A DNA stretch of 36,532 nucleotides. It comes from an uncultured Rickettsiales bacterium. GTDB taxonomy: Bacteria > Pseudomonadota > Alphaproteobacteria > Rickettsiales > SXRF01. Position 1 is the first letter of the stretch; each line of letters opens with the position of its first letter. The notes below the pieces were generated by a model. That model ran no database searches, was not told where the DNA came from, and was given only the letters and a program-made list of their open reading frames with translations. The stretch is from positions 1 to 36,532 of the forward strand of contig CAZUKF010000003.1 in NCBI GenBank assembly GCA_964620765.1. Direction: 5' to 3'. The position numbers and the translations under genes were made by a program. Shown in pieces: positions 1 through 27,084 of this stretch.

Positions 1-174
1 GGCAGCAGCGAGCCGATGGCCGATTCGCTGGTGAAGGTGGGCATGCTGCTGTTGCGCTGGCACGAGCAGAATTTGAAGCGCGCCGAGCCCGGCGCGGTGC
101 AGGAGCCGCCGCTCGAGGAGGCGGATTACGACGTCATGAAACGCAACATGGAAAAGCTGCGGCCCGGCGCATGA
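1..174 (+). CDS. 3' end of a gene coupled to terL; putative GTA small terminase by position (partial)
   Basis: Frame 1 is open from base 1 (GSSEPMADSLVKVG...EKLRPGA*). Its TGA overlaps the terL ATG (ATGA, 171-174). Function inferred from position only. Confidence 0.5.
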   Translation, partial: GSSEPMADSLVKVGMLLLRWHEQNLKRAEPGAVQEPPLEEADYDVMKRNMEKLRPGA

Positions 175-1514
175 ACAGGCTGAAGCAGCGGTATTTCGAC
201 CTGCTGGCCCGTGATTTCCCGGTTTTCATCGACCGGGTGTTTGCGACGGTGAATCCCGGCACGCGTTACCTGCCGAACTGGCATATCGAGGCGCTGGCAG
301 AGAAGCTGGAGGCGGTGCGCAAGGGCGAGGTGAAGCGGTTGATTATCAACCTGCCGCCGCGGGCGCTGAAATCGCTCTGCGTGAGTGTGGCTTGGCCGGC
401 GTGGATTCTGGGGCATGACCCAACGGCGCGTGTGCTGTGCGCCAGCTACGCGGCGCCGCTGGCGCTGAAGCATTCGCTGGATACAAGGTTGGTGATGAAC
501 GCGCCCTGGTATCGTGCGGCGTTCCCGCAAACGCGGCTGGCGCGCGACCAGAACGAGAAGCATAAATTTGTAACCACCGGGCGCGGGTTCCGCTTTGCGA
601 CAAGCGTGGGCGGAACGCTGACGGGCGAGGGCGGGAATTTTTTGATTATTGATGATCCGCAGACGCCGCTGCAGGCGCTATCTGGTGATTTTCGTAATCA
701 CGTGAGCCGCTGGTTCGAGCATACGTTTGCGAGCCGGCTGGATGACAAGGAGCGTGGTGTGATTGTGCTCGTTATGCAGCGGCTGCACGCGGATGATCTT
801 TCCGGCTATTTGCTGGAAAAGGGCGCGTGGGAGCATTTGTCTTTTCCGGCGGTCGGGGAGAACGGACAGCTGTTGCACCCGGCGCGGGAGAATGCGGAAG
901 CCGTGGAGCGGGCGAAGCGCGAGCTGGGAGCGCAGGCGTTCGCGGCGCAGTATCAGCAGCAGCCGTTGCCGGAAGAGGGCGGGATTATCAAATCCGCGTG
1001 GGTGCGAAGGTATGATGCGCTGCCGGAGGGGCGGGTGGTGCAGAGCTGGGACACGGCGATCAAAAGCGGTGCGCAGCATGATGCGAGCTGTTGTCTGACC
1101 TTCGTGGAGTATGAGGGACACGCGTACTTGGTGGAGGCGTATGTGGCGCGACTGGAATATCCGGATCTCAGGCGCGCCGTGCTGGCGCGGGCGGAACGCT
1201 GGAAGCCGGAGGCGGTGCTGGTGGAAGACCGCGCGAGCGGGCAGCAGCTGCTGCAGGATTTGCGGCGCGAGAGCTGGCTGCCGCTGGTGGCCGTGCAGCC
1301 GAAGGCGGACAAGATGACGCGGATGGCGGCGGTTTCGGCGCTGGTGGAGGGCGGGCGGCTGTTTCTGCCGGTGCAGGCGGCGTGGCTCGCTGATTTCGAA
1401 GCCGAAATATTTCATTTCCCGGCCGCAAGGCATGACGACCAGGCCGATGCCCTGAGCCAGTACCTTGATTGGCTGCGCCGTGTAGCGATTAAGCCGCGTT
1501 TACGAAATCTCTAG
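171..1514 (+). CDS. terL: Terminase large subunit (GTA-like)
   Basis: Walker A-type INLPPRALKS, Walker B LIIDDP, VMQRLH, AQYQQQP, and nuclease motifs QSWDTA and HDDQADA. Confidence 0.95.
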   Translation: MNRLKQRYFDLLARDFPVFIDRVFATVNPGTRYLPNWHIEALAEKLEAVRKGEVKRLIINLPPRALKSLCVSVAWPAWILGHDPTARVLCASYAAPLALKHSLDTRLVMNAPWYRAAFPQTRLARDQNEKHKFVTTGRGFRFATSVGGTLTGEGGNFLIIDDPQTPLQALSGDFRNHVSRWFEHTFASRLDDKERGVIVLVMQRLHADDLSGYLLEKGAWEHLSFPAVGENGQLLHPARENAEAVERAKRELGAQAFAAQYQQQPLPEEGGIIKSAWVRRYDALPEGRVVQSWDTAIKSGAQHDASCCLTFVEYEGHAYLVEAYVARLEYPDLRRAVLARAERWKPEAVLVEDRASGQQLLQDLRRESWLPLVAVQPKADKMTRMAAVSALVEGGRLFLPVQAAWLADFEAEIFHFPAARHDDQADALSQYLDWLRRVAIKPRLRNL

Positions 1515-1519
1515 TAATT

Positions 1520-1534
1520 TTAACTATTATTTAA
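1520..1534. promoter_or_regulatory. CtrA-type box TTAA-N7-TTAA
   Basis: TTAA-ctattat-TTAA, an exact match to the CtrA consensus, in the AT-rich spacer upstream of ORF 1592. Confidence 0.55.
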
Positions 1535-1591
1535 ATATAGGGCCGTAAAATGGGGGTCATAGGTTAAAAATTTGTTATTAAATGGGGATTT

Positions 1592-1867
1592 ATGATGTCG
1601 GGACGTGATGACACCACTTCGGGGTTCGCATCCAGGCTCTCTGCCGGCAGGCAGGGCCCGAAGATTAATAACATGAATAACAAGAGAGTGCAGACCATGG
1701 GTGAGCTGATTCTGCAGGTGGCAGAAGCGCTGAAGCCCGGGCTGCAGGACGAGCTCGAGGGGGTGCGTGATGAAAATGGCATGCCGGTGCAGCCCGCACG
1801 TGTGCGGGGCATCGCCATCATCATCGCGCAGGAGCTCGTGAAGTCTCACATGGCTAACGCAGCATAA
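1592..1867 (+). CDS. Hypothetical protein (start uncertain)
   Basis: 91-aa ORF followed by an RBS-led ORF; no recognisable motif. Confidence 0.6.
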   Translation: MMSGRDDTTSGFASRLSAGRQGPKINNMNNKRVQTMGELILQVAEALKPGLQDELEGVRDENGMPVQPARVRGIAIIIAQELVKSHMANAA

Positions 1868-1878: not shown

Positions 1879-2169
1879 ATGGCCCCTACAACTTTACCTG
1901 ATGCAAGGGATGTGGTGAAAAATCCGAAGGCCCCGCAAGTGGCGCAGGATACTCTGCATAATTGCACGAAAGAACATACGCTCGCGCTTAACGGCCAGCC
2001 GTATAAGCCGAATGAGCGCAGGATGGGCACGTTGCTCACCGGTGCATACGGGCACCTGGATATGCAGGAAAAGGCTCAGAACCAGTTGAGCGAGCCGCGA
2101 TCATACCGGGAGAGGTTGCAGCGGCAGGAAAAGGATTCAAAAGATCCAAGCTGGGATATGGGTGTTTAA
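1879..2169 (+). CDS. Hypothetical protein with C-terminal SYRERL motif
   Basis: Strong RBS (AAGGGAGG), 96 aa, followed by a terminator. Confidence 0.7.
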   Translation: MAPTTLPDARDVVKNPKAPQVAQDTLHNCTKEHTLALNGQPYKPNERRMGTLLTGAYGHLDMQEKAQNQLSEPRSYRERLQRQEKDSKDPSWDMGV

Positions 2170-2260: not shown

Positions 2261-2372
2261 CGTCATTGCGGCGAAAGCCGCAACCCAGTGCGCCTTGAGC
2301 CTGCCCCGGCGAAGGCCGGGGTCTGCGGCGCGTATATGTTTTTACTGGGCCCCGGCTTCCGCCGGGGTGACG
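2261..2372. repeat. REP/RPE-like palindromic element
   Basis: cgtca...tgacg ends; hairpins ttgcggc-gaaa-gccgcaa and ccccggc-ttcc-gccgggg; inner cccagt/actggg stem. Confidence 0.8.
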
Positions 2373-2398
2373 TTTAACTCTAAAAAACAGGAATCCTC

Positions 2399-3622
2399 AT
2401 GAACGCCATGCACGCGATCACGCGGTTGTTTAAAAAGCGCGCGCAAGTAAAAAGCCTGAACATCACCGGCTCGCGCACCTACATGGTGGCGCCCGGCCAG
2501 CCGGTGTGGATGGACCGTGATTACGGGCGGTTTGCGCAGGAAGCGTTCATGCGCAACGTGGTGGCGCACCGTGCCGTGAACATGGTGGCCAATGCCGCCG
2601 CGGGCGTGAAGGTAAAGGTGATAAAAGGCGGCCGGGAACTGAAAGCGCATAAGCTGTTGGATTTGCTGTCGCAGCCCAACCCGGCGCAGAACGGCGCGGC
2701 GTTTTTCGAGGCGCTGTACCAGTACCGCCTGATTGCGGGCAACGCGTTCGTGCACGCGGTGGGGCCGGCGGGCCTGCCTGCGCGAAGCCGAAGCGGCTTC
2801 GCTTCGGCGGAGGCAGGCGAGGCGCATGAGCTGCATTTGCTGCGGCCGGACCGTGTTTCCATTATCGCGGGCAAGAACGGCATGCCCGCCGCCTATCGCT
2901 ACAGCGTGGGCGAGGAGGCGCGCGACTACCCGATCAATCGCGTGACGTGGGCATCGCGCATTTTGCACATCAAAAATTTTCACCCGCTGAATGACTGGTA
3001 CGGGCTTTCGCCCATTGAGGCCGCGGCCTATAGCATCGACCAGCATAACCAGGCGGGGGCGTGGAACCAGGCGCTGCTGCAGAATGGAGCGCGGCCCTCT
3101 GGGGCGCTGGTAGTGAAGCTGGAGGGCGCGCAGGGCGGGGTGCTTTCAGAAGAGCAGTATACGCGCATCAAGCAGCAGGTGGACGAGCAGTTTGCCGGGC
3201 CGGGCAATGCCGGGCGGCCGCTGTTGCTGGAGGGCGGGCTGGAATGGAAAGAACTTTCCATGACGCCGCGCGACATGGATTTCATTGCCTGCAAGCACAG
3301 CGCTGCGCGCGACATTGCGCTGGCGTTCGGTGTGCCGCCGCAGCTTTTGGGTATTCCCGGTGATAACACGTATTCCAATCTGCAGGAGGCGCGGCTGGCG
3401 TTGTGGGAGCAGACGGTGCTGCCGCTGGTGGATTCCACGCTGGGTTCGCTGGGGAATTGGCTGGAAGCGCTATTCGGCGAGAAGCTGGCGCTGAAGGCGG
3501 ATGTGGATGGCATACTCGCGCTGGCCGCGCGCAACCAGCTGCTCTGGGAGCGAGTGGAAAAGGCGAGCTTTCTGACGCGGGATGAGAAACGCGCGGCGGT
3601 GGGCTACCCGGCGGGGGCGTGA
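2399..3622 (+). CDS. HK97-family portal protein (GTA g3-like), with a 15-aa in-frame repeat insertion
   Basis: LLSQPNP, GNAF, LRPDRV, FHPLNDWYGLSP, NGARPSGAL, LLEGGLEW, IALAFGVPPQLLGIPGDNTYSN. Confidence 0.97.
   Translation: MNAMHAITRLFKKRAQVKSLNITGSRTYMVAPGQPVWMDRDYGRFAQEAFMRNVVAHRAVNMVANAAAGVKVKVIKGGRELKAHKLLDLLSQPNPAQNGAAFFEALYQYRLIAGNAFVHAVGPAGLPARSRSGFASAEAGEAHELHLLRPDRVSIIAGKNGMPAAYRYSVGEEARDYPINRVTWASRILHIKNFHPLNDWYGLSPIEAAAYSIDQHNQAGAWNQALLQNGARPSGALVVKLEGAQGGVLSEEQYTRIKQQVDEQFAGPGNAGRPLLLEGGLEWKELSMTPRDMDFIACKHSAARDIALAFGVPPQLLGIPGDNTYSNLQEARLALWEQTVLPLVDSTLGSLGNWLEALFGEKLALKADVDGILALAARNQLLWERVEKASFLTRDEKRAAVGYPAGA
2772..2818. repeat. Palindromic element inserted in-frame in the portal gene
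   Basis: gcctgcct...aggcaggc terminal inverted repeat; internal gcgaagccg/cggcttcgc hairpin. Confidence 0.8.
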
Positions 3623-4420
3623 TTATTCATTCGGCCTGGGGCGGCGTACGCGGCGTGGTGTACCACTGACCCTGCCAAGCTGGGGGTCATCAGCTCTTTG
3701 CTGATCGATAAGATCTGTCAGGGTTTCTGTGGGCGTTTCCGCCTCTGCCGCTGGCGGTGGGGCACCACCCGCTCCAAGCGTTTCCGAGGCGGGGCTATCA
3801 TCATCAGGCATAATAGTTCCGGTAGCTTGGCCAAAGCGGGCGGAAAGCGTAGCAAAATCGATGTGCTCGGCTGTCATGACATGCAAGGTAGTCAGCGCCC
3901 TTTGTGCCTCTCTTATATCAGCCAGTTCTTTAGCGGAGAGAATAGGAACGCCTTTCATTTTTTTGCTGCCATGGTCCTCGGCGAGGCCAAACAGATCACC
4001 CACGTGCTCAATATGCTCTGCAAGAGTGGAAACGCCGTAGATCCCCGGGGGCGGCTCGGTTAAATGCGGGTTTGCAGAGTAGGCTGCTGCCGTATCAGCA
4101 GCGCCGGTCAGCATGTTCGCGCGCTCTGCAAATTCTGCAATCAGCGCCCCTCTTTCTTTCTCGGGGTGTTTTGCAGCTTTTAAAAGTTTTGCTATCCGAG
4201 AGGTATCGGCTGAAAGAATATCATCGCTCGAAATATCTACCTGCTTTGTACTGCCGGGCATGAGCATTTCAAGCACGGGTTCGATCTTGGCTTTATATTC
4301 CGCAGCTACGAACGCTTCATTCAGGTAGTTCGCGTAGCGTGCTGCAAAACCAGGTTTCTCTTCATCGCCATCACCTGGCAGGGGAAAGTCTTCGTTATCT
4401 TTTCTACCAAAAAACGCCAT
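3623..4420 (-). CDS. Hypothetical protein (ORFan; low-complexity, Arg-rich C-terminus)
   Basis: 265-aa ORF with RBS GGAGG; its stop abuts the portal stop. Confidence 0.75.
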   Translation of the reverse strand: MAFFGRKDNEDFPLPGDGDEEKPGFAARYANYLNEAFVAAEYKAKIEPVLEMLMPGSTKQVDISSDDILSADTSRIAKLLKAAKHPEKERGALIAEFAERANMLTGAADTAAAYSANPHLTEPPPGIYGVSTLAEHIEHVGDLFGLAEDHGSKKMKGVPILSAKELADIREAQRALTTLHVMTAEHIDFATLSARFGQATGTIMPDDDSPASETLGAGGAPPPAAEAETPTETLTDLIDQQRADDPQLGRVSGTPRRVRRPRPNE

Positions 4421-4533: not shown

Positions 4534-5073
4534 ATGGGCTGGAAAAACACTTCAGAAGCGTATGGCAGGGCCGCCAAGCTCTTTCACTGGATCATGGCGG
4601 CGCTGGTGATCGGCCTGCTGGCGGCGGGGCTATACATGGTGGGCATGGACCGCGTGTCTCCGGACCGGGTGAAGCTCTATGGCCTGCATAAATCCTTCGG
4701 GGCACTGGTGCTGGCGGTGGTGGCAGCCCGCCTGGCGTGGCGGCTGACCAACACGGTGCCGCCGCTGCCCGATGACATGCGCAAAATTGATAAATTCGGT
4801 GCGCACGCCGCGCACTGGGGTTTGTATGCGCTGATGTTCGCCATGCCGCTGTCCGGCTGGGCGATGTCGGCGGCGGCGGGGTTCCCGCCTTCCTTCTTCG
4901 GGCTGTTCACGCTGCCCAACATCGTGCCGGTGGATGACGGGATACGCGTTTTTGCAAAAGCATCACACTGGTGGCTTTCGCGTGCGCTGATCGTGCTGAT
5001 TGCCTTGCATGCGGGCGCGGCGCTGTGGCATCATTTCATCCGCAAGGATAATATATTGCGGAGAATGTTATGA
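4534..5073 (+). CDS. Cytochrome b561 (CybB/YceJ family)
   Basis: Heme-ligand His motifs FHW, LHKSFG, AHWGLY and LHAGAALWHH...D..L.RM; four TM helices. Confidence 0.95.
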   Translation: MGWKNTSEAYGRAAKLFHWIMAALVIGLLAAGLYMVGMDRVSPDRVKLYGLHKSFGALVLAVVAARLAWRLTNTVPPLPDDMRKIDKFGAHAAHWGLYALMFAMPLSGWAMSAAAGFPPSFFGLFTLPNIVPVDDGIRVFAKASHWWLSRALIVLIALHAGAALWHHFIRKDNILRRML

Positions 5074-5717
5074 GGAACGTCATTGCGAGCGAAGCGAAGC
5101 AATCCAGATGGTGCAAAGCTAAGCACTGGATTGCTTCGTTGCTGACGCTCCTCGCAATGACGGTAATATCGCCCGCGTTCGCGGCAGAAGAGCTGCCGCG
5201 CTACTCGGTGGCGCCGGAGGGCAGCAAGCTCAAATTCGTCGCTATCCAGAACGATGCGCCGGTGGAAGGCGCGTTCTCGCGCTACACCGCCGACATACGC
5301 TTTGACCCGAAGCGGCTGGATGAAAGCAGCATCACGGTGGAAGTGGATATGAGCAGCGTGTTTACCGCCTACCCGGAAGTGGGCACTACGCTTGCAACGG
5401 CGGACTGGTTTGACGTTGCCAGCTTCCCGAAGGCGCATTTCCGCACCATTACTATCAAAGAAATACCACCCGCCGTGGTGAGCGATGACCGCAAATATTA
5501 TTATGCGGATTCCGAGCTCAGCTTACGCGGGGTGAAGATGCCGCTGGCGCTTAACTTCGTGCTGGAAAGCCTGGATGCGAGCGGGGCGATTGCAACCGGG
5601 CATTTGACGCTGCAGCGCACGGATTTTGGCGTGGGGCAGGGTGAGTGGAAAAACACCGAGGTGGTGCAGAACCCGGTGACGGTTTCGTTCCGCATTGCGG
5701 CGAAGAGAGAGAAATAG
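5070..5717 (+). CDS. yceI: YceI-family periplasmic polyisoprenoid-binding protein
   Basis: S.L.F, G.F, DWFDVASFPKAHF, L.LRGV, RTDFGVGQGEW; signal peptide ending AFA; ATGA overlap with cytochrome b561. Confidence 0.92.
   Translation: MRNVIASEAKQSRWCKAKHWIASLLTLLAMTVISPAFAAEELPRYSVAPEGSKLKFVAIQNDAPVEGAFSRYTADIRFDPKRLDESSITVEVDMSSVFTAYPEVGTTLATADWFDVASFPKAHFRTITIKEIPPAVVSDDRKYYYADSELSLRGVKMPLALNFVLESLDASGAIATGHLTLQRTDFGVGQGEWKNTEVVQNPVTVSFRIAAKREK
5078..5162. repeat. RPE-like palindromic element within the yceI 5' end
   Basis: 12-bp IR cgtcattgcgag/ctcgcaatgacg and inner 12-bp IR gaagcaatccag/ctggattgcttc. Confidence 0.88.
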
Positions 5718-5796: not shown

Positions 5797-6336
5797 ATGT
5801 ATTCAGAAAAAAATCACCTGGCCTGCGGGCTGGAGCTGAAGTCGCTTGACCCGTCGGGGCGTTTTGCCGGCTATGCCAGCGTCTTTAACGTGGTGGACAG
5901 CCAGCGCGATATCGTGCTGCGCGGGGCGTTCATGGAGAGTATCCGCGGGCGCGCCGCCGAGGTGAAGCTGCTGTGGCAGCACCAGCAGGATGAGCCGATC
6001 GGCACTATCACCACGCTGTTCGAGGACGAGCGCGGGCTTTACGTGGAAGGGCAGCTGCTAATGGATGTGCAGCGCGCGCGCGAGGCGTTTGCGCTCTTGA
6101 AGGCGGGCGTGATCTCGGGGCTTTCCATCGGCTATACCCCCCGCCGGTATAATGTGGACCCGGATACAGGCGTACGCGAGCTGGCGGCGGTGGATTTATG
6201 GGAGATTTCCCTCGTTACGTTCCCGGCCAACGCGGCGGCGGGGGTGACGGTGGTTAAGGCCGCCCCTCAGCAGATGATTGCGCTGAGCGATGCGCTTGAC
6301 CGCGCGATTGGAGTGCTGCGGCAACCCGGCGCATAA
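5797..6336 (+). CDS. HK97-family prohead protease (GTA g4-like)
   Basis: FAGYASVF..VD...D....GAF, LLWQH, GLSIGY, LWEISLVTFPAN; RBS AGGAG. Confidence 0.97.
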   Translation: MYSEKNHLACGLELKSLDPSGRFAGYASVFNVVDSQRDIVLRGAFMESIRGRAAEVKLLWQHQQDEPIGTITTLFEDERGLYVEGQLLMDVQRAREAFALLKAGVISGLSIGYTPRRYNVDPDTGVRELAAVDLWEISLVTFPANAAAGVTVVKAAPQQMIALSDALDRAIGVLRQPGA

Positions 6337-7387: not shown

Positions 7388-7660
7388 TTATTCCTCGAAG
7401 CCGTATTCGTCCTTCATGCGCTTTTTGACATCCGCCGGGGGATAGTCGCCATAACCGGAGATGATGATCTTGCCGTATTCGGTGAGCTGGATCTGGCCCT
7501 TCTTGGCATTGGTCTCGAACAGCTTCTTCTTCAGCTTTTCCACCTGCAGGTAATACCAAGCCGCGCGGCCGGTGCTGTCGTTGCCGCGGATGAGGTAAAT
7601 GCAGTCCGCGCGCGACGAACTTACAAGGTCGGTGAAGCTTTTTTTCTCAGGAGGCGTCAT
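7388..7660 (-). CDS. Small hypothetical protein; paralog of 10842-11201
   Basis: ATG at 7660 is coupled (TGATG) to the upstream ORF. YLIRG...AWYYL.V...YGKII.SG.G..P...EYGF pattern. Confidence 0.8.
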   Translation of the reverse strand: MTPPEKKSFTDLVSSSRADCIYLIRGNDSTGRAAWYYLQVEKLKKKLFETNAKKGQIQLTEYGKIIISGYGDYPPADVKKRMKDEYGFEE

Positions 7661-8202
7661 CAGTTCCGCTTGGCCGTGGGTACAAAACTCATGCTGTCTA
7701 CCAGCACGTGCGTGAAGGGAATAGCATGGTGTTTTGCGGGGGGCAAGGCCGGCATGCCCTCGGTGAGCATTTCCACCGCCTTTTCCAGCGCGCTCTTGCG
7801 CAGCGGCTTGCTGGCATCCACCAGGCTCAGGGCCCCATCCGGCAGGGTGCGGGGGGAGCGGAATGGCGAATCCAGCCATTTATCGATGACGTAACGGGTG
7901 TGGTCCACGTCATGTGTCACCAGCCCGACGGCGGGTTTGCGCTTGGCCGCGGCAAACGCCTCGAGGAAGGTGTGCAGGTTTTTCTGATAATCGTGCCGCC
8001 CGGGGATGCCGACATGGGCCAGCGCGACGTGCTGGCGCTCCAGCAATTCCGTGGTGCGCTCGGGGTGAGAAAGATCAAACCCGATGCGGTTGCAGGTACA
8101 GGAAGCAAAAAGGCTGCCCTTGAGCAGCAATAAATACGTTTCCGCGATGCTTTGATTGCGGCTGTCGCTGATTATCCCGATGCGAAGGTCTTTACGCGTC
8201 AT
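7660..8202 (-). CDS. Hypothetical protein (possible degenerate alpha/beta receiver-like fold)
   Basis: 180-aa ORF, first gene of a coupled three-gene minus-strand run. Confidence 0.6.
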   Translation of the reverse strand: MTRKDLRIGIISDSRNQSIAETYLLLLKGSLFASCTCNRIGFDLSHPERTTELLERQHVALAHVGIPGRHDYQKNLHTFLEAFAAAKRKPAVGLVTHDVDHTRYVIDKWLDSPFRSPRTLPDGALSLVDASKPLRKSALEKAVEMLTEGMPALPPAKHHAIPFTHVLVDSMSFVPTAKRN

Positions 8203-8288
8203 TGCCCGCCGGTACGTGTTGGTTAAAGCAGTTAGTTAACGTCTTAACCACTTTTACGAGGAAATCAATCAGTCAAAATGAGGAGAAT

Positions 8289-10067: not shown

Positions 10068-10102
10068 TAATGCCGTGCAAAACAAAAATAGAATATGGTT
10101 GT

Positions 10103-21733: not shown

Positions 21734-21903
21734 AGGCCTAAACCCCGGAAAGCGCTGGAAATGTGTGCCCTGTACCGCTGTCACAGACGAGCGAGAGAAG
21801 GCTGGGGAACTCATTGGATTGTCACAAAATATTAACATAAGACCCCTAGTTCCCGCGTTATACTGATAAAGTAGTATAAGTATAACCAGGCCTGAAACCG
21901 GGT

Positions 21904-23592
21904 ATGAAAGAGATTATAAACAAGCTGGTCGTTCAGAATTCTGACGATGTCGCCAAACTGGTGACGAACCAGCTTGTCATGCCCAATATGCCCGGGGCCA
22001 AGGACGCCAAGCACGCGCACGGCCGGGTGCATAAGACCCTGACGCAGGGTGGGCGCAGTGCGGCTTATGCTGAAGAGAAAAACGTACAGAACGGCCAGAA
22101 GCAGGTGCAGGACCTGCCGCCGCCTGAGGTCATGTTCTCGGCCGACTGGTTTGATAAGTGGCTTGGCCGCGCGAATATCGGCGTGATGGGTGCGCAATTC
22201 GGCCTGCCGATAGTAGCGGGCGGCATGGGTGCCATCGGCGCGCATGGCATTTCCAGCAATCTCAAGAAAGTCGAAGCCACCACCTTCAGCGAACTCGGCC
22301 AGATGACCGGCATGAGCGGCGTTGCACGCGGTGTTTCCGAAGCCAGCATGTCGGTGGCGGGTGCGGGCGCGAGCGTGCTCGAAAAGCTCGGCATAACCGG
22401 CCTGATGTCCCGCTACTACAGTGGCCAGTTCGACAAGCACATCGGCAGGATGGCCGACGCGGCGCAGGATGTGTTTTCGCACAGAGTAGCGGACGCAAAG
22501 CTGGGTGCATCGCTGGATGCGGTGCGCGGGCACCTTGCCGTCGCGCATCCGACGCATATCAACTACGATGGTCTGACCGAAGCGATAACGGCGGCAAAAA
22601 CACAGGCAAACGAAGTGGGGCATTCAGTGCTTGCCAAGTCGTTAGGTGGCTTGGAGAAGTCTGCGCTCAAGGCGCACAATGCCCATTACTTTGCCGACGG
22701 CACGGCCAACCTCGCGCACTACGCAAGCAACGCCACCGGCAAGATGGCCAAGGCGCCGGTAGTGCACGGGCTGATGAATGCTACCTTCATCGCGGGCGCC
22801 GCCATTGATGATTACCGCACCGGCTCTGACCTGCATACCGCGCTGAAAGACCTGAAGGCCATGCATTGCGCCATCACGGGTGAGAAGCCCGATGACGTTT
22901 CCACCTGGGGCCTGATGCTGGGCAAGGTGTCTGAACCGGTGGCCGCGGCGCGCAGCGAGATACTCAAGGAATTCGGACCGGCAAGCGTACTGAGCGCCGC
23001 CAACACCATGCTTAACCTGAAATTCGCCACCAACAGCAAGTATGGCAGCATGGGTAAGAGCATTGCCCTGCTGGTGGCCGTGCCGATGGCTAATGCCATC
23101 CTGGTGCGTGGCATGCTGGGTGGCAGGATGCTGCCGGCCTACAAGGAGCTCAAGCAGGCCGAGCATGACGGGCAGGAGCTCTCAAACGAGCAGTATGCCA
23201 AGCTGATCGGCAATGCTTCTAAGGAGCTGCATGCACGCGGTGGCCCGGATGGTAACTTTGCTAAGGCGCTGGGCGTATTCTATGCCCACCACCATGCCAG
23301 GGTGGATACCGTGCTGAAAGAGGTGTCCAACGGCACCCTGCACAAGCGTATTGAGCAGCTGCAGCACGAATTTGAGGTTTTCAAGCGCGAACACCCCGAA
23401 ATCGTGGCGGCGCACCAGCAGCAGGCGCAGGCCGCGCAGGTCCCGCATCATGAGGAAAAACAGGGCGTTTCTCACGTAGATCGCCTGAAAAACGGTGGCC
23501 ATGCCCCGCGCCGCGAAGTGGTGGGCACCCATACCGAAAAGCTGGCCAATAGGGCAGGCAGCCCCGCCGAGGGCCAGCAGCCGACGCTGTAA
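21904..23592 (+). CDS. Hypothetical Ala/Gly-rich protein with hydrophobic segments
   Basis: 562-aa ORF; C-terminal SHVDRL and THTEKL. Confidence 0.85.
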   Translation: MKEIINKLVVQNSDDVAKLVTNQLVMPNMPGAKDAKHAHGRVHKTLTQGGRSAAYAEEKNVQNGQKQVQDLPPPEVMFSADWFDKWLGRANIGVMGAQFGLPIVAGGMGAIGAHGISSNLKKVEATTFSELGQMTGMSGVARGVSEASMSVAGAGASVLEKLGITGLMSRYYSGQFDKHIGRMADAAQDVFSHRVADAKLGASLDAVRGHLAVAHPTHINYDGLTEAITAAKTQANEVGHSVLAKSLGGLEKSALKAHNAHYFADGTANLAHYASNATGKMAKAPVVHGLMNATFIAGAAIDDYRTGSDLHTALKDLKAMHCAITGEKPDDVSTWGLMLGKVSEPVAAARSEILKEFGPASVLSAANTMLNLKFATNSKYGSMGKSIALLVAVPMANAILVRGMLGGRMLPAYKELKQAEHDGQELSNEQYAKLIGNASKELHARGGPDGNFAKALGVFYAHHHARVDTVLKEVSNGTLHKRIEQLQHEFEVFKREHPEIVAAHQQQAQAAQVPHHEEKQGVSHVDRLKNGGHAPRREVVGTHTEKLANRAGSPAEGQQPTL

Positions 23593-23678
23593 TACGGCTG
23601 TAATATACGGTGTAATCGAAGGTTCCCAAGCTTTCCCAGGCTTTCCTGCTAATATTATAGCAAGGAGAAAGCCTTTTT

Positions 23679-24872
23679 ATGGCAACACGGTTTTTTAACG
23701 GCAAAATGGGGCGCGGCGCCTTGAATCAGCTGGAGGGTAATGACCCGCTGGATGATGCCGATGGCGACGGCGGGAACCTGTTATTGCAGGATGCGGACAG
23801 CGATGACCGCGTTGCCGTGGAAACCGGTATTGCACCGGTAGACGACATTCAGAATGCAACGGGCGTAACCTCTACCACCAAGGCAGCCTCGCTGCTGGTT
23901 GGGTTCATACCCGGTTATGGTAGCGTGGCTTCTGTTCTTTGCGACGGCGAGGGGGCATGCGAGGACTCGCTGGTGCCCTTCGAGAAAATGCTGGTGTACT
24001 CTAATATTACGGAGCCTTTCCGGCAGGCCTACGGCCGCATGCCCACGGCCGAAGATCTGCGTGACCTGCTGATGGCCAATAATTCAACGCTGGAAGAGAA
24101 CGCCGAGCAGAACGGTAATTTTGAAGATGGTATCTTTGAGAGCGCTGCGAGTCTGGCCGGCGGAAGTGCGTTGGCTTACCTGGTGCCCGGCGGTGGTTTA
24201 CTCCTGGGCGGCGCTAAGGTGGTTGCGGGCGGTATGGCGGGCGCCAAGTTAGCGCGCATGGGGCGCGGCGCCGATAACCATACCAACGTTCCCGCACTGG
24301 TACTGACGGCAGCGCATTATGAGAAAAACGGTGGCAGAAAAACTTCCACCTACCACGCCCTGATGCTGGCGCTGACGCGCCTTACCGAGGAAGAGCAGGC
24401 AGTCATTGAAGATATGCTGAGCAAGGCTGCAGGCAAGGATATGACTTTGGAAGGTGCGCTCGTAAAATATATCAAGGGTGAAGACGCCATCATGCATGGA
24501 GGCAAACCCAGCAAGGATTATGAAATAATCAATGCCGTGATGAACAGCAACGGCACAAAGCTGATTGCAGGCGAGGCAATGGATGTGGACATGGAACTCC
24601 GCTGCGCGACCGGTGTGACAGCAGGCCGCGAGCAGGGGCATAGACAAACGCTTTGCGGGCTCTATGCGCAAGACCAGGGAATGGGTATCGCGGATGTGGC
24701 CATGGGCGACGAGATGAAACTGAATAAGCGCCTTAAAAACGCTGCCGCACAATTACGCCAGAATGGCGTAGCGTATAGCGGAAACGGTCAGCAGAACCAG
24801 TTCCAGCAGCTGACACCGCAGGCGATACACCGCCTGCCGCCGGCCAACAACCACACCATGCATCACGCATAA
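23679..24872 (+). CDS. Hypothetical protein with a glycine-zipper-like hydrophobic segment
   Basis: 397 aa; AAGGAG upstream; SLAGGSALAYLVPGGGLLLGGAKVVAGGMAG. Confidence 0.8.
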   Translation: MATRFFNGKMGRGALNQLEGNDPLDDADGDGGNLLLQDADSDDRVAVETGIAPVDDIQNATGVTSTTKAASLLVGFIPGYGSVASVLCDGEGACEDSLVPFEKMLVYSNITEPFRQAYGRMPTAEDLRDLLMANNSTLEENAEQNGNFEDGIFESAASLAGGSALAYLVPGGGLLLGGAKVVAGGMAGAKLARMGRGADNHTNVPALVLTAAHYEKNGGRKTSTYHALMLALTRLTEEEQAVIEDMLSKAAGKDMTLEGALVKYIKGEDAIMHGGKPSKDYEIINAVMNSNGTKLIAGEAMDVDMELRCATGVTAGREQGHRQTLCGLYAQDQGMGIADVAMGDEMKLNKRLKNAAAQLRQNGVAYSGNGQQNQFQQLTPQAIHRLPPANNHTMHHA

Positions 24873-24936: not shown

Positions 24937-25536
24937 ATGGCATTTATTGAAACAAGATTTCCGATAGACATCGCTTACGGCTCATCCGGCGGGCCGGAGT
25001 ATTTTACCGACGTGGTGGAAACCCACGGGGGGTATGAGCAGCGCAATGCGAACTGGGCGCAATCACGCGGGCGGTGGAACGTGGCGCATGGCGTGAAAAC
25101 ACAGGCACAGCTGGATGCGCTGATTGCTTTTTTCCGTGCGCGCAAGGGCAGGGCGGATGGGTTTCGTTTCAAGGACTGGACTGATTACAGCGGCACCGCA
25201 CAGGCACTTGGCACCGGCAACGGGGTGCTGACGCAGTTCCAGCTGGTGAAGAAATATACCAGCGGCAGCGTGACGGAAACGCGCAGCATCAGCAAGCCGG
25301 TGAGCGGCACGGTGAAGGTGTACCTGAACGGCGTGGAGCAGATGAGTGGCTGGAGCGTGAATACCGGCACCGGTATGGTGACATTCAGCGCGGCGCCGGG
25401 CGGCGGCGTGGCGGTGACGGCGGATTTTGAGTTTGATGTGCCGGCGCGTTTTGATACGGACCGTTTAAGCGCAACGCTGGATGCCTATGGCGCTACCAGC
25501 TGGCGGGATATACTGATCGTGGAGATCAGGGTTTAG
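24937..25536 (+). CDS. DUF2460/TIGR02217 distal tail protein (GTA g12)
   Basis: F.E.RFP.DI.YGS.GGPE..T; G.EQRN.NW; FFRAR.G...GFRFKDW.D; FQL.K.Y; FEFDVP.RFDTD.L. Confidence 0.97.
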   Translation: MAFIETRFPIDIAYGSSGGPEYFTDVVETHGGYEQRNANWAQSRGRWNVAHGVKTQAQLDALIAFFRARKGRADGFRFKDWTDYSGTAQALGTGNGVLTQFQLVKKYTSGSVTETRSISKPVSGTVKVYLNGVEQMSGWSVNTGTGMVTFSAAPGGGVAVTADFEFDVPARFDTDRLSATLDAYGATSWRDILIVEIRV

Positions 25537-26108
25537 AATTCCAGCCTGTTATTTTGATCGCGCTCGAAGGATTTGATATCCGCTCCTTCGTCGGGTCTAT
25601 CCTGACCATGCGATGGTTTGTAGCCAGGTGGTATATGCCGCATGACTTTTTTACCTTGTAACATCCCGTCCATGACTTCTTCCAGCTTTTCCCGTTTGTC
25701 CTGCCAATCCATGGAAGCGGGAAGATCACCTAAACGCTCCCGGGTAATCTGAATAAGATCGGCAACTGTATTGTGCAGACTAGTACAGTCTGTAAGGGAT
25801 TCTTTTTCACCATTTACAAGAAAAACTACTCTCCCATTATTTGCAGGTTGCCTCTGGATCATCTCTTCTCCTCGGGGCGCACTGAAGCCGTTTGTTTTGA
25901 GCCCGACGTGCAACAGGGATTCCATCCGGTCGGCGATACCGGAAATATCAGGCGCTGAACAGGCTTCATCGGATGGTTGCAAACGTATGAGGCGGGGGAA
26001 GCCCGCGGGTTTCAAGGTAAGCTGAATATGTTTATGCGAGTCGATCCGGTTGCTGGTTGCAACCGTGATTTCAACGGGGCCGAGGGGAAAGCCTTCAGAG
26101 GTGCTCAT
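25533..26108 (-). CDS. Hypothetical protein (ORFan)
   Basis: 191 aa, lower GC; 4-bp convergent overlap with g12. Confidence 0.72.
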   Translation of the reverse strand: MSTSEGFPLGPVEITVATSNRIDSHKHIQLTLKPAGFPRLIRLQPSDEACSAPDISGIADRMESLLHVGLKTNGFSAPRGEEMIQRQPANNGRVVFLVNGEKESLTDCTSLHNTVADLIQITRERLGDLPASMDWQDKREKLEEVMDGMLQGKKVMRHIPPGYKPSHGQDRPDEGADIKSFERDQNNRLEF

Positions 26109-26150
26109 TAAATCAGTTTTCTTTTTTTTGTACGGTTTGGCAGTAGCGCC

Positions 26151-26184
26151 AGCCTAGCAGCCGAATGTTACGCGCGTATGACAA
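26151..26184 (-). promoter_or_regulatory. Pho-box-like promoter
   Basis: TTGTCAT-ACGC-GCGTAAC, a 10-nt spacer, then -10 TAGGCT. Confidence 0.55.
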
Positions 26185-26217
26185 TATATAATAAAAACAT
26201 TAACTAACGGTAACCCC

Positions 26218-27084
26218 ATGAAATCCATCAGCTCTGAACTCGCCGCGCATATCGCGGGCGAGGTGACCACGCTCGCCACCTGCTGGAAACTCACGCGGCG
26301 CGATGCAACCGTAATGGGATTTACTGATCATGACCGGGATATTTCCTTTGAAAGCATAAATTACGCGGCAGCCAGCGGTTTTACGCCCGGCGCGGTGGGT
26401 AGCACAGCGAGTCTCGCGGTGGATAACCTGGAAGTGGAGGGAATGCTTTCCGCCGGGTTCATTACCGAGGCGGACATCATGGCCGGGAAATATGATTTCG
26501 CGGAGATCAGTATTTTCATGCTCAACTACGCCGATCTCACTCAGGGCACGCTGAAGTTGCGGCGCGGCTGGTTGGGGGAGGTGTCCTTAAGCCGTAGCCA
26601 TTTCGTGGCCGAGCTGCGCGGGCTTGCGCAACGGCTTGCGCAGAATATCGGCGAGCTTTACAGCCCAAGTTGCCGCGCCACGCTGGGCGATGCGCGCTGC
26701 AAGGTGAACCTGGCGGAACACACGGTGAGTTCGGCCGTTACAACGGCAGGGGGGCGGCAGGAATTTACCGCCACGGGCGTTACGGGCACCTCCGGTATTT
26801 ACGCGCTTGGGCAGGTGAGTTTTACTTCCGGTGCGAACAACGGGCTTTCCATGGAGATCAAGGAGCACAGTTATAATGCCACCACCGGCGCGCGCGTGGT
26901 ATTGGCGCTGCCCATGCCTTATGCGATCAGCGCCGGTGACACGTTCGATATTATCAAGGGCTGCGACAAAACGCTGGCAACCTGCGAGGCGCGCTTTGCC
27001 AACGTGGTGAATTTCCGCGGCGAGCCGCACGTGCCGGGGCTGGACCGGATGCTGGAGACGGCGGGCACAAGGAGTAGTTGGTAG
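26218..27084 (+). CDS. DUF2163/TIGR02218 baseplate hub protein (GTA g13)
   Basis: TTLATCW.LTRRD...GFTDHDRD; L.VDN.EVEG; C.A.LGDARC; GCDK...TC..RF.N.VNFRGEPHVPG. Confidence 0.97.
   Translation: MKSISSELAAHIAGEVTTLATCWKLTRRDATVMGFTDHDRDISFESINYAAASGFTPGAVGSTASLAVDNLEVEGMLSAGFITEADIMAGKYDFAEISIFMLNYADLTQGTLKLRRGWLGEVSLSRSHFVAELRGLAQRLAQNIGELYSPSCRATLGDARCKVNLAEHTVSSAVTTAGGRQEFTATGVTGTSGIYALGQVSFTSGANNGLSMEIKEHSYNATTGARVVLALPMPYAISAGDTFDIIKGCDKTLATCEARFANVVNFRGEPHVPGLDRMLETAGTRSSW

What the first reader, a model, noticed from the sequence alone, without database searches (positions are those of the whole stretch)
1..27084. Interleaved GTA locus: colinear, intact RcGTA-type genes split into 8 modules by 20 foreign genes
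Seen: terS?-terL | portal | protease | capsid-decoration | g6-g7 | g8-g9 | g12 | g13, about 8 kb of coding sequence spread over 27 kb. All are + strand, in RcGTA order and unbroken. Each of the 7 gaps holds 1-6 unrelated genes, mostly ORFans. Known: RcGTA and the Caulobacter GTA are compact ~15-kb clusters, while GTA homologues in reduced Rickettsiales are scattered. Inference: this is either an intermediate of cluster dispersal, or a scaffold that recruits cargo genes co-expressed with, or loaded into, the particle.
Basis: partly seen in the sequence, partly recalled or inferred. Interest (0 to 1): 0.85.

Follow-up and report, generated by a model that had tools for sequence, protein, structure and literature searches.

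The report
Stretched, gene-interleaved GTA cluster, clade-wide
A gene-transfer-agent (domesticated phage) gene set keeps its usual gene order but is stretched to about twice its usual length by other genes, and this is an inherited trait of a whole family of small-genome freshwater bacteria rather than an oddity of this one genome.

Summary
Ten intact RcGTA-type genes lie on the + strand in canonical order: terL, portal, protease, capsid, g6, g7, g8, g9, g12 and g13. They total 7.6 kb spread over 27.1 kb, in 8 modules, with about 20 other ORFs in 7 gaps. g14 and g15 lie on another contig of the same MAG and are also split by two genes.

The "20 foreign ORFans" reading is only partly right. In 15 same-family genomes, 12 of the 20 are positional orthologues. 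These include cytochrome b561-YceI, a small protein after the capsid, membrane proteins and large unknown proteins. They evolve under purifying selection, as the GTA genes do. Eight are specific to this genome, among them a hybrid histidine kinase sitting where g10/g10.1 lie in relatives. A tRNA-targeting integrase island separates g13-DUF2335 from g14.

Insertions are layered by order, family and genome. The tail-tube gene g9 is relocated or not found in 12 of 31 family genomes. So this is a vertically inherited, "porous" GTA cluster that is slowly expanding and partly dispersing. I found no evidence that it recruits cargo. It is a new variant of a known kind and of moderate interest.

The parts
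171..1514 (+). terL (g2), large terminase; the frame is open from base 3
   Evidence: PF17289 and phrog_38 at 4e-100. 51-64% identical orthologues lie beside the portal gene in 9 of 15 family loci.
1592..1867 (+). Small conserved ORF between terL and portal (o1592)
   Evidence: No Pfam or PHROG match. tblastn finds an orthologue at the same junction in 8 of 15 family loci.
1879..2169 (+). Window-specific ORF (o1879)
   Evidence: No family match and no tblastn hit in any fetched locus.
2261..2375 (.). REP-like dispersed repeat (this is the listed ORF 2162-2377)
   Evidence: blastn finds copies on more than 10 other contigs of the same genome.
2399..3622 (+). Portal (g3)
   Evidence: PF04860 at 4e-80 and TIGR01537.
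3623..4420 (-). ORFan, window-specific; GC3 is 0.48
   Evidence: No family match. No homologue in 0 of 30 other family genomes.
4534..5717 (+). cytochrome b561 (4534-5073) and YceI (5070-5717), an overlapping gene pair between portal and protease
   Evidence: PF01292 and PF04264. Found at the same junction in 11 and 12 of 15 family loci. In five other families the portal>protease gap is only 16-77 bp.
5797..6336 (+). Prohead protease (g4)
   Evidence: PF04586 and TIGR01543.
6254..7387 (-). TPR protein; its placement here is window-specific
   Evidence: Weak TPR matches. Only paralogues were found elsewhere: own contig C76 at 40% identity, plus G016 and G041.
7388..7879 (-). Paralogue of the post-capsid small protein; the conserved domain spans 7388-7660
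   Evidence: 31% identical to 10788-11201. HMM match at 2.8e-31. Orthologues sit on the opposite strand between protease and capsid in G004, G013, G016 and G018.
7660..8202 (-). Unknown ORF (o7660m)
   Evidence: Weak orthologues at the same junction in G014 and G004.
8202..9476 (+). Major capsid protein (g5), HK97 type
   Evidence: PF05065 at 7e-84 and TIGR01554. 69-77% identical in 24 of 24 other family genomes.
9559..9978 (+). Probable jellyroll capsid decoration or cement protein
   Evidence: phrog_5707 at 1e-25. Profile hit to 8cjz_B 'Capsid Decoration Protein', E 0.07. AF2 model at pLDDT 68; top Foldseek hit is 3j4u_H, from an entry whose title names a jellyroll-secured capsid (Bordetella phage), E 2.3e-3, TM 0.47. 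Present in 14 of 15 family loci.
10070..10738 (+). ORFan, window-specific
   Evidence: No homologue in 0 of 30 other family genomes.
10788..11201 (+). Conserved small protein after the capsid (o10788); its roughly 95-aa domain also occurs at the C-terminus of STAND NTPases elsewhere
   Evidence: Present in 15 of 15 family loci and 3 of 7 other-family loci. 1,621 representative clusters match at E<=1e-3. Long members carry CHAT, NACHT or AAA_16 plus TPR or HEAT.
11209..11300 (.). REP-like palindromic repeat
   Evidence: More than 20 copies in the genome.
11459..12208 (+). Conserved unknown protein with hydrophobic Gly/Ala-rich segments (o11459)
   Evidence: Present in 12 of 15 family loci. No Pfam, PHROG, NCBIfam or PADLOC match.
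12231..12956 (+). ORFan, window-specific
   Evidence: No homologue in 0 of 30 other family genomes.
12982..13871 (+). g6 head-tail connector (12982-13530) and g7 head completion (13527-13871)
   Evidence: PF05135 with TIGR02215, and PF05521.
14025..14567 (-). Conserved opposite-strand gene in the g7|g8 gap
   Evidence: tblastx finds orthologues at 33-47% identity in the 467-547 bp g7|g8 gaps of 7 family genomes. No Pfam match.
14538..15349 (+). g8 tail completion (14538-14939) and g9 tail tube (14942-15349)
   Evidence: PF11367 and PF06199. g9 was found in 19 of 31 family genomes.
15492..17525 (-). MHYT hybrid histidine kinase with receiver domain; window-specific. It sits at the junction where g10/g10.1 lie in relatives.
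   Evidence: PF03707, PF00512, PF02518 and PF00072. Only paralogues at 52% identity or less in 30 family genomes. G001 has g10 and g10.1 directly after g9.
17686..18764 (-). Two conserved opposite-strand genes: an Ala-rich membrane-anchored protein (17686-18264) and a SUEL-lectin-like protein (18264-18764)
   Evidence: Present in 12 of 15 and 9 of 15 family loci. PF02140 match is below the cut-off.
18917..24872 (+). Three large unknown proteins (938, 562 and 397 aa) in the position where the tape-measure gene is expected
   Evidence: No match in Pfam, PHROGs, NCBIfam, PADLOC or the ESM Atlas. The 938-aa protein has orthologues in 6 of 15 loci and the 562-aa protein in 13 of 15, at 24-35% identity. 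The 562-aa protein has only 2 homologues among 5.8 billion proteins by the word search.
24937..25536 (+). g12 distal tail protein
   Evidence: PF09343 at 6e-75. TIGR02217 'Rcc01695 family', above its cut-off.
25533..26108 (-). ORFan, window-specific; GC3 is 0.51
   Evidence: No homologue in 0 of 30 other family genomes. g12 and g13 are 5-100 bp apart in 13 of 14 family loci.
26218..27084 (+). g13 baseplate hub
   Evidence: PF09931 plus PF09356, and TIGR02218.
27394..27945 (+). DUF2335 membrane protein, conserved between g13 and g14
   Evidence: PF10097. Present in 13 of 15 family loci and in G026 and G037.
27958..28106 (-). tRNA-trailer repeat (27958-28057) plus the 3' half of a tRNA gene (28058-28106, no complete tRNA). 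This is the attachment-site end of an integrated island.
   Evidence: Sequence reading and blastn. The repeat abuts tRNA genes on six other contigs. ARAGORN finds no complete tRNA here.
28191..33637 (+). Integrated island: tyrosine integrase (28191-29603), PrimPol-AAA_25 (30551-32656), DUF5681 and others; GC 50%. It interrupts DUF2335|g14.
   Evidence: Pfam. GC 0.50 against a genome value of 0.59. In relatives DUF2335 is followed directly by g14.

Best explanation
This is a vertically inherited RcGTA-type head-tail cluster. It qualifies as a 'large cluster' in the sense of Shakya et al. 2017. The host is an uncultured family of freshwater alphaproteobacteria with genomes of about 2 Mb.

The order of the structural genes has been held constant. 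The junctions between functional modules have taken up other genes in phylogenetic layers:
- At order level: a small protein after the capsid, and DUF2335 between g13 and g14.
- At family level: cytochrome b561-YceI between portal and protease, a decoration-like protein, several membrane, lectin-like and large unknown proteins, and opposite-strand genes.
- In this genome alone: four ORFans, a TPR protein, a hybrid histidine kinase, two genes between g14 and g15, and a tRNA-targeting integrase island between DUF2335 and g14.

Insertions fall only between modules. Overlapping or abutting pairs (g6-g7, g8-g9, cytb561-YceI) are never split. Both the GTA genes and the old inserts are under purifying selection.

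The tail tube and chaperone module is the unstable part. g9 is relocated or undetected in many relatives, and g10/g10.1 were not found here.

Shown: anatomy, conservation, layering and selective constraint. Inferred: each module keeps its own expression signals or is read through, and particles (or at least heads plus baseplates) are still made.
For: **Family assignments** for the ten GTA genes come. g14 and g15 are on contig C46, separated there by two minus-strand genes.

**Conservation.** The capsid is present in 24 of 24 other family genomes at 69-77% identity.

**Synteny** in 15 family loci and 7 loci from other families comes.
- terL to g15 spans 22.2-27.8 kb in the 8 family genomes where both lie in the fetched contig.
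- This genome spans at least 34 kb, not counting the island.
- Counts at the same junction, out of 15 family loci: o10788 15, decoration 14, big562 13, DUF2335 13, YceI 12, o11459 12, o17686m 12, cytb561 11, lectin-like 9, o1592 8, the minus-strand gene in g7|g8 7, big938 6.
- The portal>protease gap is 16-77 bp in five other families, against 0.75-2.6 kb in 13 of 14 family loci.

**Fixed chromosomal site.**
- bPH/SHOCT and a phage lysozyme lie downstream of g15 in 10 and 11 of 15 family loci, and in other families too.
- The genes upstream of terL in relatives map to own contig C164.

**Selection (NG86).**
- In the same-genus pair G009/G021, omega is 0.019-0.18 for the GTA genes.
- For the conserved inserts it is 0.03-0.30.

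**Not a recent phage.** All 522 phage capsid matches are below 60% identity, and the best is 51%.

**GC content.** GTA genes 61.4%, genome 59.1%, old inserts 58.9%, window-specific inserts 56.3%, island 50.1%.

**Tail module.**
- g9 was found in 19 of 31 family genomes. It stands alone far from the cluster in G005 and G009.
- g10 and g10.1 are Pfam-positive directly after g9 in G001.
- g10 is detectable by tblastn in only three further family loci, and neither gene is detectable anywhere in the own genome.
Against: - The genome is an 85%-complete MAG in 263 contigs with 5.8% contamination. The links C164-C3-island-C46 are inferred from synteny and were not assembled.
- dS is saturated (0.9 to above 3, some values undefined). 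The omega values show constraint only roughly.
- Several family loci are cut by contig ends or by the stretch I fetched. The k-of-15 counts are therefore lower bounds.
- No tape-measure gene could be identified in any genome, and g10/g10.1 were not found here. A working tail is therefore doubtful.
- The four ORFans have low GC3 and no homologues. They may not be genes.
- The read support is shallow (depth 2-5, contigs of 0.3-1.2 kb) and may come from the MAG's own sample.
- Nothing was measured about transcription or about particles.
Confidence: 0.8

Rival explanations
1. **Remodelled GTA.** Some conserved same-strand inserts are true, lineage-specific components or regulators of the particle rather than passengers. 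Candidates are the post-capsid small protein, o11459, the 938/562/397-aa proteins between tube and baseplate, and DUF2335. On this view the cluster is long because the machine has changed, not because it is porous.
For: - These genes keep the same strand and the same junction across the family, and some across the order.
- Omega is as low as for structural genes: DUF2335 0.039 and o10788 0.073.
- The decoration-like gene shows that unrecognised structural genes do sit among the 'inserts'.
- The large proteins occupy the slot where the tape-measure gene is expected, and no tape-measure gene was found.
- Downstream of g15 lie a DUF2793/DUF5907 protein and a phage lysozyme, both conserved.
Against: - None of these proteins matches any phage family, structure or defence family.
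- The o10788 family has about 10 small paralogues scattered over the own genome, so the family as such is not GTA-specific.
- The big proteins evolve fast (24-35% identity within the family), and the 397-aa one has no detectable orthologue.
- cytb561-YceI, the kinase, the TPR protein and the opposite-strand genes are plainly cellular.
Confidence: 0.3
2. **Cargo scaffold.** The GTA backbone recruits unrelated genes so that they are co-expressed with, or packed into, the particle.
For: Only the positional conservation of the inserts supports this.
Against: - Eight of the 20 inserts are on the opposite strand.
- Their content ranges from respiratory and periplasmic housekeeping genes to ORFans, with no common theme.
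- The window-specific inserts differ from what relatives carry at the same junctions.
- cytb561-YceI lies more than 25 kb from the capsid in G032.
Confidence: 0.05
3. **Decaying prophage or GTA remnant** with no remaining function, drifting apart before it is lost.
For: - g10/g10.1 were not found and g11 was not identified.
- g9 is lost or moved in many relatives.
- Other families of the order show heavier reduction. G040 has g6 followed directly by g12. G035 has a capsid gene full of stops.
Against: - All ten genes are intact here.
- The capsid is present in 24 of 24 other family genomes.
- Omega is far below 1 for head and baseplate genes across genera.
- GC is elevated relative to the genome, as reported for large clusters (PMC5721377 passages).
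Confidence: 0.1
4. **Assembly or binning artefact**: a chimeric MAG contig.
For: The MAG is fragmented and has 5.8% contamination. The best read holders may be its own source sample.
Against: - The same backbone and 12 of the inserts recur in 15 independently assembled genomes, some in contigs of 0.4-1.4 Mb.
- Logan contigs at 100% identity bridge the o10070|o10788|o11459 junctions, the o12231|g6 junction, and the junction from the g12-g13 spacer into g13.
Confidence: 0.03

Closest known systems
RcGTA head-tail cluster of Rhodobacter capsulatus and the roughly 14-kb CcGTA cluster of Caulobacter crescentus
   Same: The gene families and their order match: terL, portal, protease, capsid, g6, g7, g8, g9, g12, g13, g14, g15. 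There are no replication or lysogeny genes inside the conserved cluster. The chromosomal site is fixed and GC is slightly raised.
   Different: - It is two to two and a half times longer: 22-28 kb in the family and at least 34 kb here. CcGTA is given as 14 kb in PMC11150451 (passages).
- Cellular and unknown genes sit at nearly every module junction, some on the opposite strand.
- g10/g10.1 are absent here and no g11 is recognisable.
- An extra decoration-like gene is present.
GTA gene sets of Rickettsiales and Holosporaceae endosymbionts (George et al. 2022, PMC9254644; abstract and Results part 1 read)
   Same: Head/portal genes and distal tail/hub/megatron genes are retained under purifying selection, while tail-tube components are lost or undetectable. 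Terminase is sometimes displaced. NCBI labels two of the five named relatives found 'Rickettsiales bacterium'.
   Different: There the genes lie in several separate clusters in strongly reduced, low-GC endosymbiont genomes. Here they remain colinear in one stretched locus, in genomes of about 2 Mb and 59% GC from a freshwater metagenome.
Multi-locus GTA 'genomes': RcGTA's five loci (PMC5721377 Fig. 1 legend) and BaGTA, whose loci are tied together by antitermination (bioRxiv 10.1101/2024.11.20.624540; search listing only)
   Same: Both show that GTA function can survive physical separation of its genes.
   Different: In those systems accessory loci are dispersed while the head-tail core stays compact. 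Here the core itself is interleaved.
Solved capsid decoration proteins: chain 3j4u_H (Bordetella phage entry) and chain 8cjz_B ('Capsid Decoration Protein')
   Same: The protein encoded at 9559-9978 has a similar size (139 against 140 and 130 aa), a beta-sandwich model, and sits directly after the capsid gene.
   Different: The matches are weak (E 2.3e-3 with TM 0.47, and E 0.07) and the model confidence is moderate (pLDDT 68). I recall no such gene in RcGTA; this was not checked.

Membership tests
RcGTA-like 'large cluster' (Shakya et al. 2017) | At least 9 RcGTA head-tail homologues in one region, merging regions separated by fewer than 15 ORFs (PMC5721377 methods passage) | tested here: met
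   There are 10 homologues in window 171-27084 with at most 7 ORFs between neighbours. With g14 and g15 on C46 the count is 12.
RcGTA-like cluster (GTA-Hunter, Kogay et al. 2019) | At least 6 RcGTA-like genes with no more than 8,000 bp between adjacent genes, each gene called 'GTA' by the SVM (PMC6821227 passages) | tested here: inconclusive
   On spacing, terL to g9 gives 8 genes with gaps of 3.0 kb or less, which meets the rule. The g9>g12 gap of 9,587 bp exceeds it. The SVM classification was not run.
RcGTA-like GTA | Complete structural set, including tail chaperones g10/g10.1, tape measure g11, peptidase g14 and megatron g15 | tested here: not met
   PF11836 and PF09550 were not found in the 85%-complete own genome, and tblastn with G001's g10 and g10.1 also found nothing. 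No g11 candidate was recognised. g14 (weak NlpC/P60 match) and g15 (GTA_TIM, 2e-68) are present on C46.
RcGTA-like GTA | No integrase, replication or lysogeny genes within the element; conserved flanks; vertical inheritance | tested here: met
   None occur in the conserved cluster of 15 family loci. The integrase island here is a separate low-GC insertion at a tRNA fragment. Flanks are conserved. Identity follows taxonomic rank: same-genus capsids 79-96%, family 69-77%, other families 42-68%.
RcGTA-like GTA | GC content above the host genome (large-cluster trend, PMC5721377 passage) | tested here: met
   61.4% against 59.1%. The excess is modest.
RcGTA-like GTA | Produces particles that package random host DNA, under CtrA and GafA/GafYZ-type control | not testable with these tools
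   No culture and no RNA data are available. PF20057 (DUF6456) is the family I recall, unverified, as covering GafZ and the GafA C-terminus. It was not found in the own genome and was found in 9 of 31 family genomes.
Temperate prophage | Close relatives among phages, variable insertion site, own integrase and repressor | tested here: not met
   All 522 phage capsid matches are below 60% identity. The locus is fixed in the family.

The most novel reading that the evidence does not exclude
In this order of small-genome alphaproteobacteria the GTA has been rebuilt into a different machine.
- The tube, chaperone and tape-measure module is being discarded.
- Head and baseplate are kept.
- New conserved proteins have been wired in. 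One is a small post-capsid protein whose domain elsewhere caps CHAT/NACHT-TPR STAND (NLR-like) proteins. Others are membrane proteins and three large, fast-evolving proteins placed between tube and baseplate.

The embedded small protein could couple particle production to an NLR-like lysis or immunity pathway, by analogy with LypABC in Caulobacter. The large proteins could be delivered effectors or a novel tail core.
Probability: 0.2. Interest if true: 0.8.

Novelty: new variant of a known kind. Interest (0 to 1): 0.5.

Why it matters
GTA head-tail clusters are usually treated as compact, co-transcribed units of 14-15 kb. How they come apart, as in Rickettsiales or in RcGTA's multi-locus 'genome', is inferred only from end states.

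This family offers a graded natural series. The order of structural genes is frozen. Insertions can be dated to order, family and genome level. One module (tube and chaperones) can be seen leaving or being lost.

That makes three questions testable by comparative genomics and, where RNA data exist, by transcript mapping:
- Which junctions tolerate insertions.
- Whether co-transcription is dispensable.
- Which genes are needed for a retained function.

It also flags about a dozen conserved unknown genes as candidates for new GTA components. Finally, it warns that distance-based GTA detectors may split or miss such loci.

Tried and rejected
- **Function of the conserved unknowns.**
  - No usable match came from Pfam, PHROGs, NCBIfam or PADLOC, or from the ESM Atlas for the 562- and 938-aa proteins.
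  - The AF2 model of the post-capsid small protein (pLDDT 63) gave no Foldseek match at E<=1e-3 in PDB or BFVD. Its PDB profile search gave only a chance-level hit.
  - The 562-aa protein has just 2 homologues in the word-based search of 5.8 billion proteins.
- **Is the post-capsid small protein a general GTA accessory gene?** It was not found at E<=1e-10 in 120 genomes, one from each of 120 other families of the class. It is therefore restricted to this lineage within the class, although the domain is common elsewhere.
- **Paralogy test.** I asked whether the two minus-strand genes flanking g8-g9 (14025-14567 and 17686-18264) are paralogues that could drive recombination. They are not (E 15). 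Only a 76-nt element downstream of both is shared.
- **Promoter and terminator scan.** Promoter-like sites were at chance level (8 found, 8.5 expected) and terminator-like sites barely above it (27 against 20.6). I do not use this as evidence.
- **RNA genes.** Rfam found no family match in the window, and ARAGORN found no complete tRNA.
- **Regulator search.** PF20056, an accession I recalled, turned out to be DUF6455 and was irrelevant. PF20057 (DUF6456) was not found in the own genome and was patchy in the family. I could not confirm its link to GafZ in the two papers searched, so I draw no conclusion.
- **Expression.** No RNA holder was listed for the stretch.
- **Taxon name.** The search for related loci returned 5 named contigs with only vague titles: 'Rickettsiales bacterium', 'Alphaproteobacteria bacterium', 'Pseudomonadota bacterium', and one MAG titled Rickettsia typhi at 35% identity. 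I could not place the family relative to 'Clade 1' of Shakya et al.
- **Literature.** I found no description of a colinear interleaved GTA cluster, or of cytb561/YceI inside one, in four full-text searches. The supplementary tables of PMC5721377, PMC6821227 and PMC9254644 may list such clusters.

Full report
**What the window is**

The window is the whole of contig C3 (36,532 bp). It belongs to a metagenome-assembled genome of 2.08 Mb in 263 contigs, 85% complete with 5.8% contamination and 59.1% GC. Three runs of one freshwater-metagenome sample hold it.

**Checking the observation**

Pfam, PHROGs and NCBIfam identify ten genes, all on the + strand, uninterrupted and in RcGTA order:

| Gene | Coordinates | Note |
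|---|---|---|
| terL | 171-1514 | frame open from base 3 |
| portal | 2399-3622 | |
| S78 protease | 5797-6336 | |
| HK97 capsid | 8202-9476 | |
| g6 | 12982-13530 | |
| g7 | 13527-13871 | |
| g8 | 14538-14939 | |
| g9 | 14942-15349 | |
| g12 | 24937-25536 | TIGR02217, 'Rcc01695 family' |
| g13 | 26218-27084 | TIGR02218, 'phage/gene transfer agent baseplate hub' |

They add up to 7,554 bp in 27,084 bp. The seven gaps measure 884, 2174, 1865, 3003, 666, 9587 and 681 bp. I count 20 non-GTA ORFs in the gaps, not counting the decoration-like gene.

Some details need correcting.
- A terS cannot be shown.
- ORF 2162-2377 is a dispersed REP-like repeat.
- The gene in the g7|g8 gap is the minus-strand ORF 14025-14567, not the plus-strand ORF there.

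The gene after the capsid (9559-9978) matches phrog_5707.
- Its profile weakly hits a solved 'Capsid Decoration Protein', 8cjz_B, at E 0.07.
- Its AF2 model (pLDDT 68) has chain 3j4u_H as best Foldseek match, at E 2.3e-3 and TM 0.47. The title of that entry describes a Bordetella phage capsid 'secured by jellyroll'.
- 'Decoration' is therefore moderately supported.

**The locus is larger than the finding**

DUF2335 (27394-27945) follows g13 here and in 13 of 15 family loci.

g14 and g15 are on contig C46, at 86-580 and 2646-6320. They are themselves separated by two minus-strand genes: a LOG/SLOG-like protein and a putative lipoprotein.

Downstream of g15 lie three further genes:
- a bPH/SHOCT gene;
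- a DUF2793/DUF5907 protein;
- a phage lysozyme.

The bPH/SHOCT gene and the lysozyme are conserved in 10 and 11 of 15 family loci, and in other families too.

In the window, DUF2335 is followed by four things:
- a repeat that elsewhere in this genome abuts tRNA genes;
- the 3' half of a tRNA gene (28058-28106, minus strand, with no complete tRNA);
- a tyrosine integrase;
- a PrimPol-AAA_25 gene, in DNA of 50% GC.

Together these are a tRNA-targeting island that splits DUF2335 from g14. Relatives have no tRNA gene at this junction, so an earlier rearrangement must have brought one there.

**Is it peculiar to this genome? No**

The capsid occurs in 24 of 24 other genomes of the same family at 69-77% identity. 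I fetched 15 same-family loci and 7 loci from other families of the order, then mapped all window proteins on them with tblastn.

The family-wide order is:

terL - o1592 - portal - cytb561 - YceI - protease - [variable, opposite strand] - capsid - decoration - o10788 - o11459 - g6 - g7 - [minus-strand gene] - g8 - (g9 - g10 - g10.1) - [two minus-strand genes] - big938 - (a 411-aa protein) - big562 - (a roughly 300-aa protein) - g12 - g13 - DUF2335 - g14 - g15.

terL to g15 spans 22.2-27.8 kb in the 8 genomes where both are in the fetched contig.

Twelve of the window's 20 inserts have positional orthologues. Some loci are truncated, so these counts are lower bounds:

| Insert | Family loci with an orthologue at the same junction (of 15) |
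|---|---|
| o10788 | 15 |
| big562 | 13 |
| YceI | 12 |
| o11459 | 12 |
| o17686m | 12 |
| cytb561 | 11 |
| lectin-like | 9 |
| o1592 | 8 |
| minus-strand gene in g7\|g8 | 7 |
| big938 | 6 |
| o7388m type | 4 |
| o7660m | 2 |

Eight inserts are specific to this genome.
- Four are ORFans with no homologue in 30 other family genomes.
- One is a TPR protein with only paralogues elsewhere.
- One is an MHYT hybrid histidine kinase with only paralogues at 52% identity or less.
- The last two are ORF 1879-2169 and the 397-aa protein.

**The insertions are layered**

- In five other families the portal>protease gap is 16-77 bp. The protease>capsid gap there is 7-146 bp in six other families, with an overlap in G032. 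In 13 of 14 family loci the portal>protease gap is 0.75-2.6 kb and carries cytb561-YceI.
- The post-capsid small protein and DUF2335 reach beyond the family, into 3 of 7 and 2 of 7 other-family loci.
- GC content follows age: GTA genes 61.4%, old inserts 58.9% (equal to the genome), window-specific inserts 56.3%, island 50.1%.
- Insertions never split overlapping or abutting pairs (g6/g7, g8/g9, cytb561/YceI).

**The tail module is unstable**

- g9 (PF06199) was found in 19 of 31 family genomes. In G005 and G009 it stands alone, 680 and 72 kb from the cluster. In several 97-100% complete genomes (G004, G010, G012, G024) it was not found.
- G001 has Pfam-positive g10 and g10.1 directly after g9. 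tblastn detects g10 in only three further family loci, and neither gene anywhere in the own genome.
- In the window the histidine kinase occupies exactly that junction.
- No tape-measure gene was recognised in any genome. Its expected place is taken by large unknown proteins, rich in Ala, Gly, Lys and Glu, that evolve fast.
- Other families of the order show stronger reduction. G040 has g6 followed directly by g12-g15, and G026 has terL 27 kb away. This resembles what George et al. describe for Rickettsiales and Holosporaceae (PMC9254644; abstract and Results part 1 read).

**Selection and origin**

I computed Nei-Gojobori estimates on five genome pairs.
- In the same-genus pair G009/G021, omega is 0.019 (capsid) to 0.18 (g7) for the GTA genes.
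- For the conserved inserts it is 0.03-0.30.
- Window-versus-relative pairs give 0.07-0.31 for the GTA genes.
- dS is saturated everywhere (0.9 to above 3, some undefined). The values show constraint, not its exact strength.
- Capsid identity follows rank: 79-96% within genera, 69-77% within the family, 42-68% in other families.
- All 522 phage matches are below 60%, and the best is Azospirillum phage Cd at 51% over 76% of the protein.
- Both flanks of the locus are conserved.

This rules out neutral decay and a recent temperate phage.

**Assembly**

The backbone and the old inserts recur in independently assembled genomes, some in contigs of 0.4-1.4 Mb.

For the window-specific junctions the evidence is weaker. 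Logan contigs of 0.3-1.2 kb, at depth 2-5 and 100% identity, cover 9001-29000 piecewise. They bridge the o10070|o10788|o11459 junctions, the o12231|g6 junction, and the junction from the g12-g13 spacer into g13. The only 'joint' reported is a 24-nt-side artefact inside the kinase domain. The sample may be the MAG's own source.

**A lead worth noting**

- The post-capsid small protein (10788-11201) is 54-68% identical across the family and has 13 invariant residues.
- Its profile finds 1,621 representative clusters at E<=1e-3 among 1.84 billion proteins. Of the top 150, 107 are 200 aa or shorter and 36 are 300 aa or longer, mostly with the domain at the C-terminus.
- I scanned 8 long members. 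Three carry CHAT and/or NACHT/AAA_16 with TPR or HEAT repeats, three carry only TPR or HEAT, and two carry nothing.
- The own genome has about 10 small paralogues. One lies on the opposite strand between protease and capsid.
- Within the class the domain was not found at E<=1e-10 in 120 genomes, one from each of 120 other families.
- In Caulobacter a CARD-NLR-like system, LypABC, is needed for GTA release (PMC13236601; abstract read). A GTA-embedded copy of a domain that caps STAND proteins is therefore suggestive. No link is shown here.

**Comparison with what is known**

- By the rule of Shakya et al. (at least 9 homologues, regions merged across fewer than 15 ORFs; PMC5721377 passage) this is a 'large cluster'.
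- By the GTA-Hunter spacing rule (8 kb or less; PMC6821227 passage) the g9>g12 gap would split it.
- CcGTA is given as 14 kb (PMC11150451 passage).
- Processive antitermination by GafZ there, and in BaGTA (search listing only), shows one way a stretched cluster with internal terminators could still be expressed. I could not establish such a regulator here.
- Four full-text searches found no description of a colinear, interleaved GTA core or of cytb561/YceI inside one. Supplements were not available.

**Verdict**

This is not a unique intermediate and not a cargo scaffold. It is the most expanded member (at least 34 kb) of a family-wide, vertically inherited, insertion-tolerant GTA cluster whose tail-tube module is eroding.
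- It is a new variant of a known kind. I score interest at 0.5 and put confidence in the main reading at 0.8.

Noticed in passing
window 27958-33637 (and possibly to the contig end): A tRNA-targeting integrative island: the 3' half of a tRNA, a tyrosine integrase, PrimPol-AAA_25, DUF5681, at 50% GC. A heavy-metal P-type ATPase (33954-36173, minus strand) follows and may be cargo. The other end of the island is not on this contig.
   Followed up: partly
window 2261-2375, 11209-11300, 27958-28057: Three classes of short dispersed intergenic repeats, each with many copies across the genome. The third class lies directly beside the 3' ends of tRNA genes on six other contigs (C40, C47, C48, C89, C109, C114).
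   Followed up: partly
window 13872-13947 and 17589-17665: A 76-nt element, about 86-89% identical between its two copies and found nowhere else in the assembly. It lies just downstream of two unrelated minus-strand genes that flank the g8-g9 module. It could be a shared terminator or a small RNA.
   Followed up: partly
window 10788-11201 and 7388-7660; own contigs C29, C9, C80, C157, C256, C84, C5, C110: A roughly 95-aa domain family with about 10 small paralogues in this genome. The same domain sits at the C-terminus of CHAT/NACHT/TPR STAND proteins in other organisms.
   Followed up: partly
L067 (G009:C1:138000-152000) 5966-6606; L068 (G005:C3:196000-210000): The relocated, solitary tail-tube gene g9 of G009 lies 160 bp downstream of a tRNA-Lys gene. 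In G005 a weak g10.1-like match lies on the opposite strand about 480 bp upstream of the relocated g9.
   Followed up: no
L005 (own contig C46) 577-1854 (-), 7316-9223, 11129-11563: A LOG/SLOG-type (Lysine_decarbox, LDcluster4) gene is inserted between g14 and g15. Downstream of g15 lie a DUF2793/DUF5907 protein (possibly a tail fibre) and a phage lysozyme (possibly the GTA endolysin). The lysozyme is conserved in the family and in three other families.
   Followed up: partly
G035:C4:10459-11494: In one other family of the order the capsid homologue is riddled with stop codons (TGA, TAA and TAG across three fragments). It appears to be a decayed GTA capsid gene.
   Followed up: no
Family genomes: These roughly 2-Mb genomes each give 5 to 26 matches to the hybrid histidine kinase at E<=1e-20. 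That is an unusually large family for their size.
   Followed up: no
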